A DNA stretch of 64,000 bases from Patescibacteria group bacterium (GTDB taxonomy: Bacteria; Patescibacteriota; Patescibacteriia; Magasanikbacterales; GWA2-37-8): the NCBI GenBank assembly GCA_041661385.1, contig JBAZUP010000001.1, forward strand, positions 495,920 to 559,919, given 5' to 3'. The notes under the pieces were generated by a model that was not told where the DNA came from, did not search any database, and saw nothing but the letters and a program-made list of their open reading frames with translations. Shown piece after piece: positions 57,616 through 61,819 of the stretch; within the stretch, counting starts at the first letter, position 1; each line of letters begins with the position of its first letter. The position numbers and the translations under genes are program-made.

Positions 57616-58575
57616 ATGACAATAAATATGGATAATTATTTACTGCGAATTGAAAAAATGAAAAAAAGCCTCACAATCCTTCAAAAGGAGAATTTTAAAA
57701 TTGCTTCTAACGGAACGCATCATAAAGTATATATTTCAAATAAATATGTTATCAGATTTCGAGACGATAACCAAAAAATTTTAGCTAGAGAAGTTAAATT
57801 ATTAAAACAACTCAATCATCCTCTGATACCAAGGGTTTTGTGGTCTGGCTATATTAATAAATCATTTGTAATGCTTGAAAACAGACTCCCTGGTAAAACG
57901 TTAGATTTACTCTGGAAGATACTTCCGAAAAAAAATCAATTAAATATTATTAATCAAATTATTCAGTTTTTGCAATATATAAAAACTCAAAATTATAATT
58001 ATGTTTATTCGGTCAATACTGGTAAAAAATATAATAATTTTAAAGGCTATCTCACCAACAATATCAAGCAAAAAGTTGCAAGCATAAAAAAAATTAAACA
58101 AACGAACGATATTTTGAAGGAATTAATTTTAGTTATTAAAAAACCCGAGGTTCAAAAATTCTTTTCTAACCAAGAAAAAATAACACTTGTTCACGGCGAT
58201 CTTATTATTCATAATCTACTCTCAGATGGCAAAAATTTAACCGGCGTTATAGATTGGGAGTTGGCTTTATACGGCGTACCTGACTACGACCTTTTTCGCC
58301 TTTTTTATTATGAAGAGTGTGCTAAAGCTTACCAAGAACAAGACACCGATGAATCCTTTGAAGCAGAGTTCCTAAATATGCTTAACGTAAAAATTTTAAA
58401 ATCAAATCTTATTAAAAGCAAAAAAAAGTTTCAAAAAAAATATCAACTTGTGAATGCCATATTTTTTCTTAACGCCCTTTATTGGGCGGTAAATTCCGAT
58501 AACCGAAATGAAAATATAAACGAGCTAAAAATGCTATGGAAAAAAAGAAGTGGGGTTAAGTACATATGTACTTAA
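57616..58575 (+). CDS. APH/choline-kinase-family phosphotransferase (protein-kinase-like fold)
   Basis: VHGDLIIHNLL (Brenner HGDxxxxN) and IDWELA (DxE). Very AT-rich gene. Confidence 0.65.
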   Translation: MTINMDNYLLRIEKMKKSLTILQKENFKIASNGTHHKVYISNKYVIRFRDDNQKILAREVKLLKQLNHPLIPRVLWSGYINKSFVMLENRLPGKTLDLLWKILPKKNQLNIINQIIQFLQYIKTQNYNYVYSVNTGKKYNNFKGYLTNNIKQKVASIKKIKQTNDILKELILVIKKPEVQKFFSNQEKITLVHGDLIIHNLLSDGKNLTGVIDWELALYGVPDYDLFRLFYYEECAKAYQEQDTDESFEAEFLNMLNVKILKSNLIKSKKKFQKKYQLVNAIFFLNALYWAVNSDNRNENINELKMLWKKRSGVKYICT

Positions 58576-58590
58576 CCCCACGAACTGCAA

Positions 58591-58686
58591 CTACTTGCAG
58601 CGGGTCCGCTTTCCAGACATGGCAACGCCCGATTTCATCGGGGTAACCTTGCGGATTGCGACCTTTTTGATAGCAATCTTCTTCAT
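58591..58686 (-). CDS. 31-aa basic peptide co-transcribed 15 nt downstream of the radical SAM gene
   Basis: AGGGGG Shine-Dalgarno 8 nt before ATG. MKKIAIKKVAIRKVTPMKSGVAMSGKRTRCK, single Cys at residue 30. Below the ORF-track size cutoff; found by manual translation. Confidence 0.4.
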   Translation of the reverse strand: MKKIAIKKVAIRKVTPMKSGVAMSGKRTRCK

Positions 58687-58701
58687 TTAAATCACCCCCT
58701 T

Positions 58702-60150
58702 TCACACACCGCACGTGTGACGCTTCACAACCGTTGAAGCACCGTTTGACCGAAGATATTCCAATGCAAGAGCATCCGTGACCGAGCGGTAAAAATCACA
58801 CATATCGGCAAAAAGACTTTGCCGCTGATCCCCTACCAATTGTGCATCAACTTCTCTTGTCACATGACATTGACCGCCGCACGGACCTTCAATAACACAA
58901 CCTTTACAGTAGGCATCTGCTCCAGGAAAACGCTCCTGGACAATTTTGAACAATCCGCCGGACCTGTTGAACATCTCATCAAAACGATCCACGTGCCCAA
59001 TAGATGTACATGTATGGCCACAAACCTTTATACTTCCATCAACATTAAATTCAACCGATTTTCCCTGGACGGCGGCGCAAAAGGCATGACTACCTGTGAG
59101 GAGGCTCACTGATGTTAGGTTGCGAAATGCACTATCCCAAGTACCGAAGAAATCAATCCCCAAATCATTTGCGTATCTCTTCAGCACCATCAGCTTTTCA
59201 ACTCTCGTTGGTATCGGCACATCAATCAGGCTAATAAGGTCGTAGTCAAAAGCAAGAGATACCATGCCTCTTGCGGCGGCAAGATCGATGATATCTACAT
59301 CCACAAAATCGAAATTTCTCTTGGTCACAGTAATACTGAAACCATCCAGCGGATAACCAATTTCAGCCAAGAGATCAAACTTCTTGAGCAAAAGCGCGAA
59401 TGTGCCTTTTCCACCCTTGGTAACGCGAATCACATCATTAGCCTGGGCAGTTCCATCTAGCGAGGTCGCAATTACCACCCTATACTCCTTAAGGGTTTCA
59501 GCAATTTCGCGCGTCATCAAAGAAAGATTTGTATTGATTGCGAATTCAAACTTTAAACCACTCATCTGACTACAATAGACCAGCACATTTTTTATGACCG
59601 GCCAGTTTATGAGGGGTTCAGCATTTCCGAAATGAATTTTACCATCCGAACACTCATTCTTTCGCATTAACAATATGTATTGGTCAATGCATTGCTTTGC
59701 CGTTTCCCAACTCATATTGCGAGATAATTCATTGTTCGAATTGGATTGAAGTACAATACCTCCACTATTGAACGACTGCCGATGAAGACAATGGGAACAC
59801 CCAAAATTACAAAGGTCGCTAATTGCAAGGCCCATACGGTCAACTGTCTGCCCCTGCTTGATTTGCGACAAGTGTTGAGCCTTCTGAGATCTAAGAAACA
59901 TCTTCTCATCGAAACCTGGTTCAACAAGAAATAAAATCTCCTCGAACTCCTTAATAATTTCTTCCGGATTTTCGTCACACGCTTTCGCAATTTCTTCCTG
60001 AGTCACTGGATACTTAAACAAATCCAAAAATTGTCTGGCTTCATCATTGACAATCCGAGGATTGCCGTACAAAGTATGATAAGCCATAGACGTTTCGAAT
60101 TCGGGATTTGCAATAAAGCGAACATTCGGCGACAACATGTATTTTTTCAT
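58702..60150 (-). CDS. Radical SAM / SPASM-domain enzyme with an N-terminal extension of about 105 aa (peptide- or protein-modifying maturase type)
   Basis: CNFGCSHC (Cx3Cx2C) roughly 105 aa from the start. C-terminal Cys-rich SPASM-like region (CGHTC...CKGCVIEGPCGGQC...C). Start set to ATG 60148-60150 (MKKYML), which has an AAGGAGA Shine-Dalgarno. Confidence 0.75.
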   Translation of the reverse strand: MKKYMLSPNVRFIANPEFETSMAYHTLYGNPRIVNDEARQFLDLFKYPVTQEEIAKACDENPEEIIKEFEEILFLVEPGFDEKMFLRSQKAQHLSQIKQGQTVDRMGLAISDLCNFGCSHCLHRQSFNSGGIVLQSNSNNELSRNMSWETAKQCIDQYILLMRKNECSDGKIHFGNAEPLINWPVIKNVLVYCSQMSGLKFEFAINTNLSLMTREIAETLKEYRVVIATSLDGTAQANDVIRVTKGGKGTFALLLKKFDLLAEIGYPLDGFSITVTKRNFDFVDVDIIDLAAARGMVSLAFDYDLISLIDVPIPTRVEKLMVLKRYANDLGIDFFGTWDSAFRNLTSVSLLTGSHAFCAAVQGKSVEFNVDGSIKVCGHTCTSIGHVDRFDEMFNRSGGLFKIVQERFPGADAYCKGCVIEGPCGGQCHVTREVDAQLVGDQRQSLFADMCDFYRSVTDALALEYLRSNGASTVVKRHTCGV

Positions 60151-60360
60151 TGTCAATTTCTCCTTATTTGGGTTATATGTCAATCTTTTTCGACATGTGA
60201 ATCGTCATCATCAAAAAAATAACTTCTACTTTGTAAAAGAGCGAGCAGTATTCTCTGCTTCATTTTTAACTTAAAAAGTTATACATTTAAGCAAAAAATG
60301 AAATAAATAATAACAACCAAAAATACCATATTTAATGATTAATGTCAATAGTATAAAGAA

Positions 60361-60394
60361 GACCCGCGGGGCGCCGAAAGGCACCACGCGGGTC
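60361..60394 (-). terminator. Hairpin terminator after the Ig-like lipoprotein gene
   Basis: gacccgcg...cgcgggtc 8-bp stem. Confidence 0.5.
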
Positions 60395-60413
60395 TGTTGA
60401 AAAGAACTACTGA

Positions 60414-61385
60414 CTACTGGTTGATGGGGACCAGCCTGCCATCTGCGCTCATTGACATGAGCTGACTAGTCGCGGGCTGAGCGCCGCAAGAAGTAATCAC
60501 AGTTGCCGTGAGCAGTTGGACCTCGCCGGGCCTAAGCGACACGGTATTCGGAGACACCGAAACGCTCACAACCTTGTCCGTCACAGTGACGGCAGCGACA
60601 GATGACTTGGTGACATCGGCCTTGCTGACCGCCACTATGTGGTAAATGCCGGCGATTGCCGGAGCGGTGTAGAGACCAGTGGCGGAGATTGTTCCGCCCG
60701 CTGCTCCCTCCTGAATGGACCAGGTGACACCGGTGTTACTGGTGCCGCTAATAATTGTGCCAAACTGATACGTGAGGCACGAATTGATTGCGGCTGTTGC
60801 CGGCGAAACTGCGATGCTGACCACCGGATTAACGACAATCGGCGAATTGACGGCAACCGCGGCGGTTGCTGACTTTCTGTTTTTTACGACCGTGGTCGCA
60901 ATCACATGAAAGTTACCAGCATTGGCCGGCGCAGAGTACAAACCAGTTGCGGAAATGGTCCCGCCACCGGTTTCCGTGACAGACCAACTGACAGAAGTAT
61001 CTGTTGGACCAGTCACAGTAGCCACGAACTGAATGTTGCCACCGACGAGAACCTGCGCCGAAGAAGGGCTGACAGAAATGACTGTCCTTCGCACCTTTAC
61101 GGCCGCACTGCCGACCAGCGAATTGCTGGTTGTTCGCAGCACATGGTATGTGCCATCACTTGCCGGCGCTGTGTAAAGACCGGTCGAAGAAATGGTTCCA
61201 CCATTGGTCTCCATGACTGACCAGGTACCTGCCTCGGCTGAGACAAATTGCTGGCTGTCGCCAACTTCGAGTTCAGCCGAAGCTGGACTCACGGTAACTG
61301 GTGTGACTGTCACCACCTGAGAGGTGGTAATCTCGGCCGGAACGCAACCGACCAGAAGAAACAGCATGACCATGAAACTCTTCAT
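60414..61385 (-). CDS. Lipoprotein with three Ig-like (Big_2-type) repeats; GC-rich
   Basis: Start at ATG 61383-61385: MKSFMVMLFLLVGC lipobox. Three repeats of about 90 aa (...GGTISATGLY.AP...G.YHV.A.S...). GC clearly higher than flanking genes. Confidence 0.65.
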   Translation of the reverse strand: MKSFMVMLFLLVGCVPAEITTSQVVTVTPVTVSPASAELEVGDSQQFVSAEAGTWSVMETNGGTISSTGLYTAPASDGTYHVLRTTSNSLVGSAAVKVRRTVISVSPSSAQVLVGGNIQFVATVTGPTDTSVSWSVTETGGGTISATGLYSAPANAGNFHVIATTVVKNRKSATAAVAVNSPIVVNPVVSIAVSPATAAINSCLTYQFGTIISGTSNTGVTWSIQEGAAGGTISATGLYTAPAIAGIYHIVAVSKADVTKSSVAAVTVTDKVVSVSVSPNTVSLRPGEVQLLTATVITSCGAQPATSQLMSMSADGRLVPINQ

Positions 61386-61390
61386 GGAGA

Positions 61391-61819
61391 TTACGCCGCC
61401 CTTCCTGGACGACGGAACATCCGCCAGTTCGGATGGGTTAGCGCGTAATCGCGGCAAGCCATCTTGGAGCAATACAAATTGCCATCAGCCTCGAGCCAAT
61501 CCTTCGGATTGTTGGTCGTGTCGTCACATCGAAGACACTGATAGGCCAAATGACCCAAAGGCTTCTCGCCCGCAACTGCAAGCTGATTCGAGATCTTCTC
61601 GACATTGCTGACCTTCTTGTCAGTCCGATTGGCGAGACCGCGCCGGTGTCGACACGGGCTCGAATTGCAATAGTGCTTATCGCCAACGATATCCCAATTT
61701 CTCGGGAAGTACTTTGAACCGACCGGAATGGCCGACTTGTTCTTGCAATTCTCTTCATCGCAACTGAATTGCTGAAACTTTGCTCCACTGCCAGTGGTTT
61801 GGATGGTAGCGTCGAACAT
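61391..61819 (-). CDS. 8-Cys protein (four CxnC pairs; two predicted zinc-ribbon-like sites); GC-rich
   Basis: GGAGGA Shine-Dalgarno 6 nt before ATG. CDEENC, CNSSPC, CLRC, CSKMAC. No signal peptide. Confidence 0.55.
   Translation of the reverse strand: MFDATIQTTGSGAKFQQFSCDEENCKNKSAIPVGSKYFPRNWDIVGDKHYCNSSPCRHRRGLANRTDKKVSNVEKISNQLAVAGEKPLGHLAYQCLRCDDTTNNPKDWLEADGNLYCSKMACRDYALTHPNWRMFRRPGRAA

What the first reader, a model, noticed from the sequence alone, without database searches (positions are those of the whole stretch)
58591..60150. Radical SAM/SPASM maturase-type enzyme with a co-transcribed 31-aa Lys-rich peptide on a GC-enriched segment
The enzyme has Cx3Cx2C about 105 residues from the N-terminus. 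A leader-binding (RRE-like) N-terminal domain is my inference. It has a Cys-rich SPASM-type C-terminus, a fold typical of peptide- or protein-modifying rSAMs. Fifteen nt after its stop, a 31-codon ORF with a good Shine-Dalgarno (AGGGGG, 8 nt) encodes MKKIAIKKVAIRKVTPMKSGVAMSGKRTRCK, which has a single Cys near the C-terminus. Candidate roles are a modified-peptide substrate or a small basic partner protein. GC content here is visibly higher than in the flanking AT-rich kinase-like gene, which suggests acquisition.
Basis: partly seen in the sequence, partly recalled or inferred. Interest (0 to 1): 0.7.

Follow-up and report, generated by a model that had tools for sequence, protein, structure and literature searches.

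The report
Undescribed radical-SAM peptide system with kinase
A radical-SAM enzyme and a real, conserved 31-residue peptide gene form a small peptide-modifying operon that travels with its own kinase in candidate-phyla-radiation bacteria, and no database or paper I could search describes this family.

Summary
On the minus strand, two strong hairpins bracket a bicistronic operon. It holds a 482-aa radical SAM/SPASM enzyme (60150..58702) and, 15 nt later behind a Shine-Dalgarno site, a 31-codon gene (58686..58591).

The small ORF is a real gene. It follows the enzyme in about 35 homologous loci, shows codon-position variation of 0.24/0.16/0.49 and pN/pS of 0.28, and always ends in GKRTxCK. Cyanobacterial and ANME-1 relatives carry a related precursor (…R[AV]TCQRRS) upstream instead. 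Lysine richness fades in GC-rich hosts, but the C-terminal motif does not.

The enzyme reaches no curated family cut-off. Its nearest solved relative is TigE, a cyclopropyl synthase, but the family-defining GYW tyrosine is Thr or Ser here.

An APH-family kinase accompanies the pair in 25 of 25 loci of the window's clade that have enough flanking DNA. It occurs in two gene orders, one of them beside a serine recombinase.

The GC contrast does not show acquisition. The enzyme gene is compositionally ordinary, and the kinase is the low-GC outlier in every locus.

Best reading: a new RiPP-type system. The proposed chemistry, a small Cys–Thr thioether ring, is inferred and not shown.

The parts
60360..60395 (-). 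Hairpin plus U-run that ends the unrelated upstream gene. It marks the 5' boundary of the operon.
   Evidence: Fold gives -30.7 kcal/mol, z = -6.3, followed by UUCUUUAU.
60320..60348 (-). Promoter-like site: TTGACA, 17 nt, TG-TATTTT.
   Evidence: Consensus scan, 10 of 12 matches with an extended -10 TG. This is a consensus match only. TTGACA-like boxes recur upstream of the enzyme gene in homologous loci.
58702..60150 (-). Radical SAM/SPASM peptide maturase of 482 aa. It has an N-terminal RRE-like winged-helix domain (about residues 3-76), CX3CX2C at 114-121, G-T-W at 336-338, seven SPASM cysteines, and a C-terminal tail KRHTCGV.
   Evidence: Pfam PF04055. NCBIfam RiPP-maturase matches, all below cut-off. 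Profile match to TigE 8VPO, E = 1.8e-59. AlphaFold model pLDDT 87.6, TM 0.80 to TigE. Motif columns.
58692..58700 (-). Shine-Dalgarno site AGGGGGTGA for the peptide gene.
   Evidence: Read from the sequence. Homologous loci have AAGGAGGTGA at the same distance.
58591..58686 (-). Precursor peptide gene of 31 aa: MKKIAIKKVAIRKVTPMKSGVAMSGKRTRCK. It has an amphipathic Ile/Val-Lys N-terminal strand (putative leader) and an invariant C-terminal GKRTxCK (putative core).
   Evidence: Conserved downstream of the enzyme gene. Codon-position variation 0.24/0.16/0.49 and pN/pS 0.28. No Pfam or NCBIfam family.
58540..58581 (-). Intrinsic terminator: a 14-bp stem and a T-run. It is shared head-to-head with the convergent kinase gene, whose last 26 nt lie inside the stem-loop.
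   Evidence: Terminator scan. Fold gives -31.3 kcal/mol, z = -7.6.
57616..58575 (+). APH-family kinase-like gene of 319 aa, convergent. It is a dedicated partner of the module.
   Evidence: Pfam PF01636, E = 1.4e-16. HGDxxxxN and DWE are invariant. Present in 25 of 25 loci of the window's clade with enough flanking DNA. In L164 it lies upstream and co-directional. Its 195 homologues parallel the enzyme's 210, and 32 share a contig length with an enzyme cluster.

Best explanation
This is a compact RiPP-type (ribosomally made, post-translationally modified peptide) module: a precursor peptide, its radical SAM/SPASM maturase, and a dedicated APH-family kinase.

Shown:
- The two genes form one transcription unit.
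- The peptide gene is under purifying selection, with an invariant C-terminal G-K-R-T-x-C-K.
- The enzyme has the radical SAM cluster motif, seven SPASM cysteines and an RRE-type N-terminal domain.
- The kinase co-occurs in two different gene orders.

Inferred mechanism:
1. The RRE binds the amphipathic (K)-I/V-K-I/V N-terminal strand of the peptide and feeds the C-terminal heptapeptide into the active site.
2. The 5'-deoxyadenosyl radical abstracts a hydrogen from a residue next to the single invariant Cys. The most likely site is the gamma-methyl of the invariant Thr, the same kind of position that the nearest relative TigE attacks on Ile/Val.
3. The radical couples to the Cys sulfur. This gives one small thioether ring (Thr-x-Cys), as in thermocellin (S-C-gamma of Thr) and the single-Cys enteropeptins.

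The product would be a short, strongly cationic cyclised peptide.

The kinase is inferred to phosphorylate a hydroxyl of the peptide or product. Self-protection seems more likely than tailoring. The reasons are that it is usually transcribed separately, and that other clades have an efflux-type MFS transporter or GNAT acetyltransferases in its place.

My probabilities: precursor-plus-maturase reading about 0.8; thioether chemistry about 0.35; kinase acting on the peptide or product about 0.5.
For: Operon anatomy:
- SD sites, a 15-nt gap, and flanking hairpins with z = -6.3 and -7.6.

Peptide gene:
- Present beside the enzyme gene in L001-L011, L013, L014, L016-L020, L026-L030, L033, L081-L087 and L161-L165.
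- In fifteen 31-codon orthologues, G25, K26, R27, T28, C30 and K31 are invariant while their wobble positions vary by 0.25-0.64. pN/pS is 0.28.
- L029 carries two tandem copies.
- Cyanobacterial, ANME-1 and L086 homologues (38-43% identity) carry a related precursor upstream, ending in R[AV]TCQRR[SN].
- Every variant keeps one Cys with a Thr within two residues.

Enzyme:
- The top NCBIfam matches are thioether-forming maturases: QhpD, PapB, CcpM, RumMC and SCIFF.
- The nearest solved structures are TigE (E = 1.8e-59; TM 0.80) and then CteB.
- The Tyr of TigE that caps auxiliary cluster I is Thr or Ser in all clades, and the seven Cys ligands are kept.

Precedents:
- Thermocellin carries an S-C-gamma linkage (PMC10114670).
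- Enteropeptins have a single sactionine ring between neighbouring residues (PMC12973295).

Kinase:
- Present in 25 of 25 loci, in two gene orders, with catalytic motifs invariant.
Against: - No chemistry was observed. The modified residue and bond type are inference only.
- The closest characterised relative makes C-C bonds (cyclopropanes), not thioethers. A conserved hydroxyl residue (Thr/Ser) at the Tyr position could still ligate auxiliary cluster I, which would argue for TigE-like rather than CteB-like chemistry.
- The Thr-Cys spacing differs between clades: T-x-C, T-C, and S-C-T. One conserved ring size is therefore not implied.
- The short-form clade keeps GKRTxCK without any kinase. 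The kinase is convergent in 24 of 25 loci, so its link is by association only.
- No protease is seen. No exporter is seen in the window's clade.
Confidence: 0.68

Rival explanations
1. The enzyme is a cyclopropyl synthase like TigE/TvgB. It converts the conserved Ile/Val residues of the N-terminal half (I4, I6, I9, I11, V14) into (methyl)cyclopropylglycines. The C-terminal GKRTxCK would then be a recognition or follower sequence.
For: - TigE is by far the closest characterised and solved relative (E = 1.8e-59 against 3.8e-23 for CteB; TM 0.80).
- The peptide has a regular Ile/Val pattern conserved in 13-15 of 15 orthologues.
- G-x-W and all SPASM cysteines are shared with TigE.
Against: - The GYW tyrosine is reported as strictly conserved, specific to and essential for cyclopropyl synthases (PMC10878394). 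It is Thr in 60 of 61 homologues and Ser in the short-form clade.
- The Ile/Val-rich stretch degenerates in L163 (MIKIAAAVLRPIAKPP...) and is cut to about 10 residues in the short form, while GKRTxCK is invariant.
- Known cyclopropyl-synthase substrates carry repeated core motifs. None is present here.
Confidence: 0.12
2. The peptide is the precursor of a small redox cofactor or metabolite, as with PQQ or mycofactocin. Alternatively the enzyme oxidises the Cys or Thr side chain, as an anaerobic sulfatase maturase does, rather than cross-linking it.
For: - The core is invariant over wide phylogenetic distance.
- In the window's clade the genes are single-copy, with no protease or exporter.
- SPASM enzymes include PqqE, MftC and anSME. 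anSME structures are among the fold matches.
Against: - The distribution is patchy and accessory. About 34 loci were found among 185,579 species genomes scanned by pattern.
- One copy sits beside a serine recombinase and ParB.
- There are no conserved partner oxidoreductases.
- Transporters and a STAND NTPase accompany other clades.
- The anSME, MftC and PqqE-type models score far below cut-off.
Confidence: 0.1
3. The 31-aa product is not a substrate. It is a small basic accessory or regulatory protein of the enzyme or kinase, for example a nucleic-acid-binding or chaperone-like peptide.
For: - It is Lys-rich and short.
- It lies downstream rather than upstream of the enzyme gene in the candidate-phyla-radiation loci.
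Against: - Basic character is not conserved in high-GC hosts.
- The gene's position flips to upstream in other clades.
- L029 has tandem duplicates.
- The enzyme carries a peptide-recognition domain.
- The strongest constraint falls on a 7-residue C-terminal motif with one Cys, which is typical of a core peptide.
Confidence: 0.06
4. The small ORF is a chance ORF in a 3' untranslated region.
For: 31 codons is short, and such ORFs are common in a 41% GC genome.
Against: - Conserved in about 35 loci with a strong SD site.
- Third-position variation is 2-3 times that of positions 1 and 2, and pN/pS is 0.28.
- Invariant residues are encoded by varying codons.
Confidence: 0.01

Closest known systems
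TigE / TvgB radical SAM cyclopropyl synthases (PDB 8VPO; PMC10878394)
   Same: - Same three-domain build: RRE, radical SAM barrel, seven-Cys SPASM domain.
- Full-length profile match (E = 1.8e-59), 23% identity, predicted-fold TM 0.80.
- G-x-W motif in the same place.
- Acts on a small precursor encoded next door.
   Different: - The defining GYW tyrosine (ligand of auxiliary cluster I, essential for activity) is Thr or Ser here.
- The substrate has no repeated TVGG/TIGSVS-type motif, and the invariant part contains no Val or Ile.
- A dedicated kinase accompanies the system.
CteB / thermocellin (SCIFF ranthipeptide maturase, PDB 5WGG) and other thioether-forming maturases (PapB, QhpD, RumMC, CcpM)
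   Same: - RRE plus radical SAM plus SPASM.
- Second-best solved relative and the best NCBIfam matches.
- The substrate contains Cys and Thr close together, and thermocellin carries an S-C-gamma linkage (PMC10114670).
   Different: - Scores are 80-130 bits against curated cut-offs of 340-720.
- SCIFF peptides have six Cys, while this one has a single Cys.
- There is no sequence similarity between the precursors.
Enteropeptins (Kgr system), single-ring 'type 4' sactipeptides
   Same: A short basic peptide with one Cys and one small thioether ring between neighbouring residues (PMC12973295; PMC10288494). This is the best precedent for the product type proposed here.
   Different: - The Kgr cluster adds an arginase and a methyltransferase (my recollection; not checked here). 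No kinase is known there.
- Homology between KgrC and this enzyme was not tested.
FxsA/FxsB (FxSxx-COOH) peptide systems linked to STAND/AP-ATPases (PMC7159879)
   Same: - A small peptide with a conserved C-terminal motif plus a radical SAM/SPASM enzyme.
- The cyanobacterial clade of the present family sits next to a STAND NTPase in 5 of 6 loci.
   Different: - The FxsB model scores 29 bits against a cut-off of 370.
- The peptide motif is different.
- There is no metallopeptidase partner.
APH-family kinases that act on peptides: viomycin/capreomycin phosphotransferases (self-resistance), and LxmK/TvaC-type kinases of class V lanthipeptides and thioamitides (my own knowledge, not tested here)
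   Same: APH fold with an intact catalytic HGDxxxxN...DWE. Genetic linkage to a basic peptide product.
   Different: - No HopA1-type lyase is present in any locus, so kinase-lyase dehydration is unlikely.
- No named APH family reaches its cut-off. The best is APH(3') at 31 bits against 205.

Membership tests
Radical SAM superfamily | A CX3CX2C motif that binds the SAM-cleaving [4Fe-4S] cluster, with a Pfam PF04055 score above the gathering threshold. | tested here: met
   C114-X3-C118-X2-C121 is invariant in 61 homologues. PF04055 scores 47.1 bits against 29.5.
SPASM subgroup of radical SAM enzymes | The seven-Cys motif CX9-15GX4C ... CX2CX5CX3C ... C, which binds two auxiliary clusters. | tested here: met
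   C358-X13-G372-X4-C377, C415-X2-C418-X5-C424-X3-C428 and C451 are all invariant and align to the SPASM cysteines of TigE. Caveat: Pfam PF13186 was not reported at E <= 0.01 for this protein.
RRE-containing RiPP maturases | An N-terminal winged-helix RiPP recognition element that binds the leader peptide. | tested here: met
   Residues 4-100 align with high posterior probability to TigE 6-106, which contains the crystallographic RRE (residues 3-85). The AlphaFold model shows strands at 10-14, 20-25 and 29-35 and helices at 36-43, 51-55 and 63-71, with pLDDT around 90. Peptide binding itself cannot be tested here.
RiPP precursor-maturase pair | A small conserved precursor gene adjacent to the maturase and co-inherited with it. 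| tested here: met
   About 35 loci, a coding signature, an invariant core, tandem copies in L029, and an upstream position in other clades.
RiPP precursor-maturase pair | The enzyme actually modifies the peptide. | not testable with these tools
   This needs expression and mass spectrometry.
Cyclopropyl synthases (TvgB/TigE, RadicalSAM.org cluster 1-1-201:AS65) | A strictly conserved GYW motif whose Tyr ligates auxiliary cluster I and is required for activity. | tested here: not met
   The aligned motif is G-T-W in 60 of 61 homologues (Val in one) and G-S-W in the short-form clade. TigE has GYW in the same column. The feature is defined in PMC10878394.
Cyclopropyl synthases (TvgB/TigE) | A precursor with a repeated core motif that contains a conserved Val or Ile. 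| tested here: not met
   There is no repeated motif. The invariant GKRTxCK has no Val or Ile.
Named thioether-forming maturase families (QhpD, PapB, CcpM, RumMC, SCIFF/ScfB) | A score at or above the NCBIfam curated cut-off. | tested here: not met
   Scores are 73-82 bits against cut-offs of 340-720 for the window enzyme, and at most 128 bits for other clades.
Sactipeptides / ranthipeptides (as a product class) | A Cys sulfur linked to a carbon of another residue. | not testable with these tools
   One invariant Cys with a Thr within two residues is present in every variant. The bond itself is not observable.
Anaerobic sulfatase-maturating enzymes | The family score cut-off, plus a sulfatase target carrying C/S-x-P/A-x-R. 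| tested here: not met
   TIGR03942 scores 50.3 bits against 349. No sulfatase gene lies in any locus. The peptide lacks the motif.
APH (aminoglycoside phosphotransferase-like) kinase family, for the neighbouring gene | The Pfam PF01636 threshold, plus the catalytic HxDxxxxN and D-[FW]-[GE] motifs. | tested here: met
   PF01636 scores 61.4 bits against 23.2. H193-G-D195...N200 and D213-W-E215 are invariant in 20 homologues. No named resistance family reaches its cut-off.
Kinase-lyase dehydration systems (class V lanthipeptides, thioamitides) | An APH-like kinase paired with a HopA1-type lyase. | tested here: not met
   No such lyase appears among the conserved neighbours. Only the enzyme, the peptide and the kinase recur.

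The most novel reading that the evidence does not exclude
This is a previously undescribed RiPP class shared by candidate-phyla-radiation bacteria, Cyanobacteria and ANME-1 archaea. A sister lineage of the cyclopropyl synthases, with Thr or Ser in place of the cluster-capping Tyr, performs a new reaction on a Thr-(x)-Cys motif. The reaction would be gamma-methyl activation of Thr, giving a Cys-Thr thioether or an epoxide-derived link. A co-evolving APH-family kinase phosphorylates the product as immunity or as a switch. The enzyme's own C-terminal R-x-x-C-T tail would act as a built-in pseudo-substrate.
Probability: 0.3. Interest if true: 0.75.

Novelty: new variant of a known kind. Interest (0 to 1): 0.6.

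Why it matters
Candidate-phyla-radiation (Patescibacteria) bacteria have tiny genomes and few known natural products. A conserved, mobile three-gene peptide module in them points to a molecule used in their interactions with hosts or neighbours.

For enzymology, the family is the nearest known sister of the cyclopropyl synthases, yet it lacks their signature tyrosine. It therefore offers a natural experiment on what directs SPASM enzymes toward C-C or C-S bond formation.

The system is small: a 20-42-residue peptide, one enzyme and one kinase. It is easy to test by co-expression and mass spectrometry.

The precursor family and the enzyme clade have no model in Pfam or NCBIfam, so current annotation pipelines label them only as 'radical SAM protein' or miss the peptide altogether.

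Tried and rejected
- **Recent acquisition inferred from GC.** Rejected. The enzyme gene is within 0.5 SD of the window's genes. The enzyme > locus > kinase ordering recurs in all 15 loci tested first, and the GC-rich hosts differ.
- **Alternative precursor upstream.** The 27-aa ORF at 60263..60180 has no SD site. The 5' region is not conserved in 12 homologous loci.
- **Known RNA elements.** Rfam found nothing meaningful between 57300 and 62100. The best hit had E = 0.49.
- **Named families for the peptide.** None in Pfam or NCBIfam at E <= 10.
- **Literature.** No paper contains GKRTGCK, TCQRRS or related strings. Searches on CPR/Patescibacteria plus radical SAM/RiPP found no description. The cyclopropyl-synthase mapping papers do not mention these taxa.
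- **Peptide homology searches.**
  - The exhaustive phmmer run of the single peptide found only itself.
  - Exact look-ups show that some of these peptides are called as genes but carry no name.
- **Metagenome scan.** It added only 8 true family members.
- **Shared transporter partner.** The cyanobacterial BT1-type and the CPR TetA(P)-like MFS proteins are not specifically related.
- **Anti-phage defence.** PADLOC gave only weak generic viperin/radical-SAM matches.
- **FxsA/FxsB identity for the cyanobacterial clade.** Rejected on score and motif.
Full report
**1. What is in the sequence**

The feature lies on the minus strand. A strong hairpin (60395..60360; -30.7 kcal/mol, z = -6.3) with a U-run ends the preceding gene. 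A promoter-like TTGACA-17-TG-TATTTT follows at 60348..60320.

The enzyme gene runs 60150..58702. It starts at ATG, has AAGGAG 8 nt upstream, and encodes 482 aa. Fifteen nucleotides after its TGA, behind AGGGGGTGA, a 31-codon gene (58686..58591) encodes MKKIAIKKVAIRKVTPMKSGVAMSGKRTRCK.

A 14-bp hairpin with a T-run (58581..58550, z = -7.6) follows. It overlaps the last 26 nt of a convergent APH-family kinase-like gene (57616..58575, plus strand).

The only correction is that CX3CX2C begins at residue 114.

**2. The small ORF is a gene**

A pattern scan of one genome per species returned 34 true family members (L001-L034). A metagenome scan added 8 (L081-L088). Exact-protein look-ups added 5 more loci (L161-L165).

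In nearly every candidate-phyla-radiation (CPR, Patescibacteria) locus with downstream DNA, a small ORF follows the enzyme gene behind AAGGAGGTGA. It always ends in GKRTxCK.

- Long form (29-42 aa): MKKIxIKKIKIxKVxPxxSGxSFxGKRTGCK.
- Short form (20 aa): MRKVKxEIRISMxGKRTxCK, in Peribacteria-, Saccharibacteria- and Absconditabacteria-labelled loci.
- Variant: ends KKGKDA[ST]C[T/AY], in L019, L020 and L165.

Fifteen 31-codon orthologues differ pairwise at codon positions 1, 2 and 3 by 0.24, 0.16 and 0.49. The pN/pS ratio is 0.28. G25, K26, R27, T28, C30 and K31 are invariant while their third positions vary by 0.25-0.64. L029 has two tandem copies.

In hosts of 56-63% GC, the lysines of the N-terminal half are largely replaced. 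Examples are MIKIAAAVLRPIAKPPTSSASEGKRTSCK and MDTKTVTKVDGAAKVVVKNAKIAAVTPMTPGTKTAGKRTECK. The heptapeptide stays unchanged.

Cyanobacterial, ANME-1 and L086 homologues (38-43% identity) have no downstream ORF. They carry a related precursor upstream, for example MTEKKQVKIRVKPEQIKTTKPDSLFKSRATCQRRS.

Features shared by all variants:
- an amphipathic I/V-K strand;
- usually a Pro;
- one invariant Cys with a Thr within two residues;
- in most variants, an Arg three residues before the Cys.

**3. The enzyme**

Pfam sees only the radical SAM core. NCBIfam gives about 40 matches, all to RiPP-modifying radical SAM/SPASM maturases. The top matches are QhpD, PapB, CcpM, RumMC and SCIFF. All lie far below their curated cut-offs, and the same holds for the other clades.

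The seven-Cys SPASM pattern is present and invariant.

A profile of 61 homologues matches one solved structure far better than any other. That structure is TigE (8VPO), with E = 1.8e-59 over the full length. CteB follows at 3.8e-23.

An AlphaFold model (pLDDT 87.6, pTM 0.86) has an N-terminal strand-and-helix domain, the barrel and the SPASM domain. It matches TigE with TM 0.80.

TigE is a methyl-cyclopropylglycine synthase. Its residues 3-85 are an RRE, and the Tyr of its GYW motif ligates auxiliary cluster I. The authors report GYW as strictly conserved, specific to cyclopropyl synthases and essential for activity (PMC10878394).

In the present family the aligned motif is G-T-W (60 of 61) or G-S-W (short-form clade). 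All seven Cys ligands are retained.

The family is therefore a sister of the cyclopropyl synthases that fails their defining test.

**4. The kinase belongs to the module**

Clustering all ORFs of the loci shows that only three things recur: the enzyme, the peptide and an APH-family protein. Other neighbours differ from locus to locus.

A tblastn search with the window's kinase finds it in 24 other loci. With the window, that is every locus of the >=44% identity clade that has enough flanking DNA, or 25 of 25.

In 24 of the 25 it is convergent and shares the terminator. In L164 it lies upstream and co-directional (kinase, then enzyme, then peptide). That locus is 63% GC and sits beside a large serine recombinase and a ParB gene. 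Its kinase is an orthologue, with 31% identity over the full length and E = 2e-52.

The kinase has 195 database homologues at 56-68% identity, mirroring the enzyme's 210. Thirty-two of the 120 listed kinase clusters share their longest-contig length with a listed enzyme cluster. This is only a proxy for lying on the same contig.

HGDxxxxN and DWE are invariant.

Other clades carry different neighbours:
- a TetA(P)-like MFS transporter (L028, L030);
- GNAT acetyltransferases (L019, L020);
- a BT1-type MFS transporter plus a STAND NTPase (Cyanobacteria).

**5. Composition**

The window's genes average 0.407 GC with SD 0.051. The enzyme gene is 0.434, which is ordinary. The kinase is 0.289, a low outlier. 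The two genes upstream (60414-61819) are 0.52-0.56, high outliers.

In all 15 homologous loci tested at that point the order is enzyme > locus > kinase. Of three further loci checked later, the AT-rich L161 has its kinase below the locus value, while the GC-rich L163 and L164 do not follow the order. The GC contrast is therefore largely a property of these gene families in AT-rich hosts. It is not evidence that this copy was recently acquired.

Mobility of the module as such is suggested independently by the variable flanks and by L164.

**6. How it most likely works**

Shown:
- an operon of a maturase-type enzyme and a selected small peptide;
- an RRE-type domain in the enzyme;
- an invariant C-terminal motif with one Cys;
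- a co-inherited active-looking kinase.

Inferred:
- The N-terminal amphipathic strand is the leader bound by the RRE.
- The C-terminal heptapeptide is the core.
- The enzyme makes one oxidative cross-link at the Cys.

I favour a thioether from the Cys to the neighbouring Thr, probably at its gamma-methyl. Four observations point that way:
- Thr is, like the Ile/Val attacked by TigE, a beta-branched residue with a gamma-methyl.
- Thermocellin, made by CteB, carries an S-C-gamma linkage (PMC10114670).
- The best family matches are thioether-forming enzymes.
- Loss of the capping Tyr could free an iron of auxiliary cluster I for the substrate thiolate. Open-site thiolate binding in CteB is my recollection and was not checked here.

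Enteropeptins show that single-Cys peptides with one small ring exist (PMC12973295).

The chemistry remains unproven, and I put it at about 0.35. Cyclopropanation of the Ile/Val strand is the main rival.

The kinase may phosphorylate the invariant Thr or another hydroxyl. Three points make self-protection a reasonable guess over tailoring:
- it is usually transcribed separately;
- other clades have efflux or acetyltransferase genes in its place;
- there is the precedent of viomycin and capreomycin phosphotransferases, which is my own knowledge.

**7. Comparison with what is known, and novelty**

The system works like a radical SAM/SPASM RiPP pathway. It is not a member of any named family:
- it fails the GYW test for cyclopropyl synthases;
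- it fails every curated NCBIfam cut-off;
- its precursor has no Pfam or NCBIfam model;
- the motif strings occur in no searchable paper.

Database entries call the enzyme 'radical SAM protein' and the kinase 'aminoglycoside phosphotransferase family protein'. They give the peptide no name.

I rate it a new variant of a known kind. The precursor family is new. The enzyme is a sister lineage with an altered signature residue. The kinase partner is unusual and obligate in one clade. The family spans CPR bacteria, Cyanobacteria and an archaeon.

**8. Limits**

No experiment or co-folding was possible. Prevalence estimates rest on pattern-seeded scans. The taxon labels of several MAGs ('uncultured Gammaproteobacteria') are doubtful. 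The kinase's substrate is unknown.

Noticed in passing
window 58702-58725 (enzyme C-terminus KRHTCGV); homologues P0002-P0120: The enzyme's own C-terminal tail resembles the substrate core. Of 108 full-length homologues, 60 end ...N-R-Q-x-C-T-L. Among those 60, Arg is at -6 in 55, Cys at -3 in all 60, and Thr at -2 in 47. This is the same R-x-x-C plus adjacent Thr pattern as the precursor cores. The tail is disordered in the model. In TigE the tail lies in the RRE cleft. It could be a pseudo-substrate, a cluster cap, or an in-cis substrate.
   Followed up: partly
window 60414-61819: A high-GC patch (0.52-0.56 against a window mean of 0.41) lies directly upstream of the operon. It encodes a Big_2-domain protein with a lipoprotein-like signal and a Cys-rich 142-aa ORF with no family match. 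It is not conserved in homologous loci.
   Followed up: partly
window 57616-58575: The kinase gene is the low-GC outlier of the window (0.289, -2.3 SD). In the AT-rich loci it is GC-poorer than its neighbourhood, while the enzyme gene is GC-richer. Its last 26 nt form part of the shared bidirectional terminator.
   Followed up: yes
L164:274-7424: In a 63% GC contig the module is arranged kinase, then enzyme, then a 42-aa peptide on one strand. It sits between a large serine recombinase (Resolvase/Recombinase/Zn_ribbon_recom) and a ParB-like gene, which suggests carriage on a mobile element.
   Followed up: partly
L007:7152-8633; L004:5599-6822; L010:1379-3794: Some CPR loci carry a second, unrelated radical SAM gene (22-27% identity) close by, with its own SD-preceded small ORF.
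- L007: a SCIFF-like ...SSCNGHEGCSGDDCNADTGGCPSDGSCGQDC.
- L004: ...KCAGQCTCRCK.
- L010: MKKVRILNKGNRKVVALTKESQGTMYYRAE plus a methyltransferase.
These look like small RiPP islands.
   Followed up: partly
L029:5356-5546: Two tandem precursor genes, MRKVKTEIRISMAGKRMECK and MRKVKTEIRVSMAGKRTECK, each with its own SD site.
   Followed up: no
L022-L025, L031, L034 (Cyanobacteria); L021 (ANME-1): In the cyanobacterial clade the precursor lies upstream. A STAND/NB-ARC NTPase lies divergent upstream in 5 of 6 loci. A BT1 (folate-biopterin type) MFS transporter follows the enzyme gene in L023 and L025. This recalls the peptide-plus-AP-ATPase conflict systems of PMC7159879, but with a different peptide and enzyme family.
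   Followed up: partly
window 58585-58600: A small 6-bp hairpin (CUGCAA GUAG UUGCAG) spans the Cys-Lys-stop codons of the peptide gene, just before the terminator. By eye, several homologous loci have similar TGCAA-stop-TTGCA arrangements in the output.
   Followed up: no
window 60180-60263: A 27-aa ORF (MKQRILLALLQSRSYFFDDDDSHVEKD) lies in the 5' leader of the operon. It has no SD site and is not conserved in 12 homologous loci, so it is probably not a gene.
   Followed up: yes
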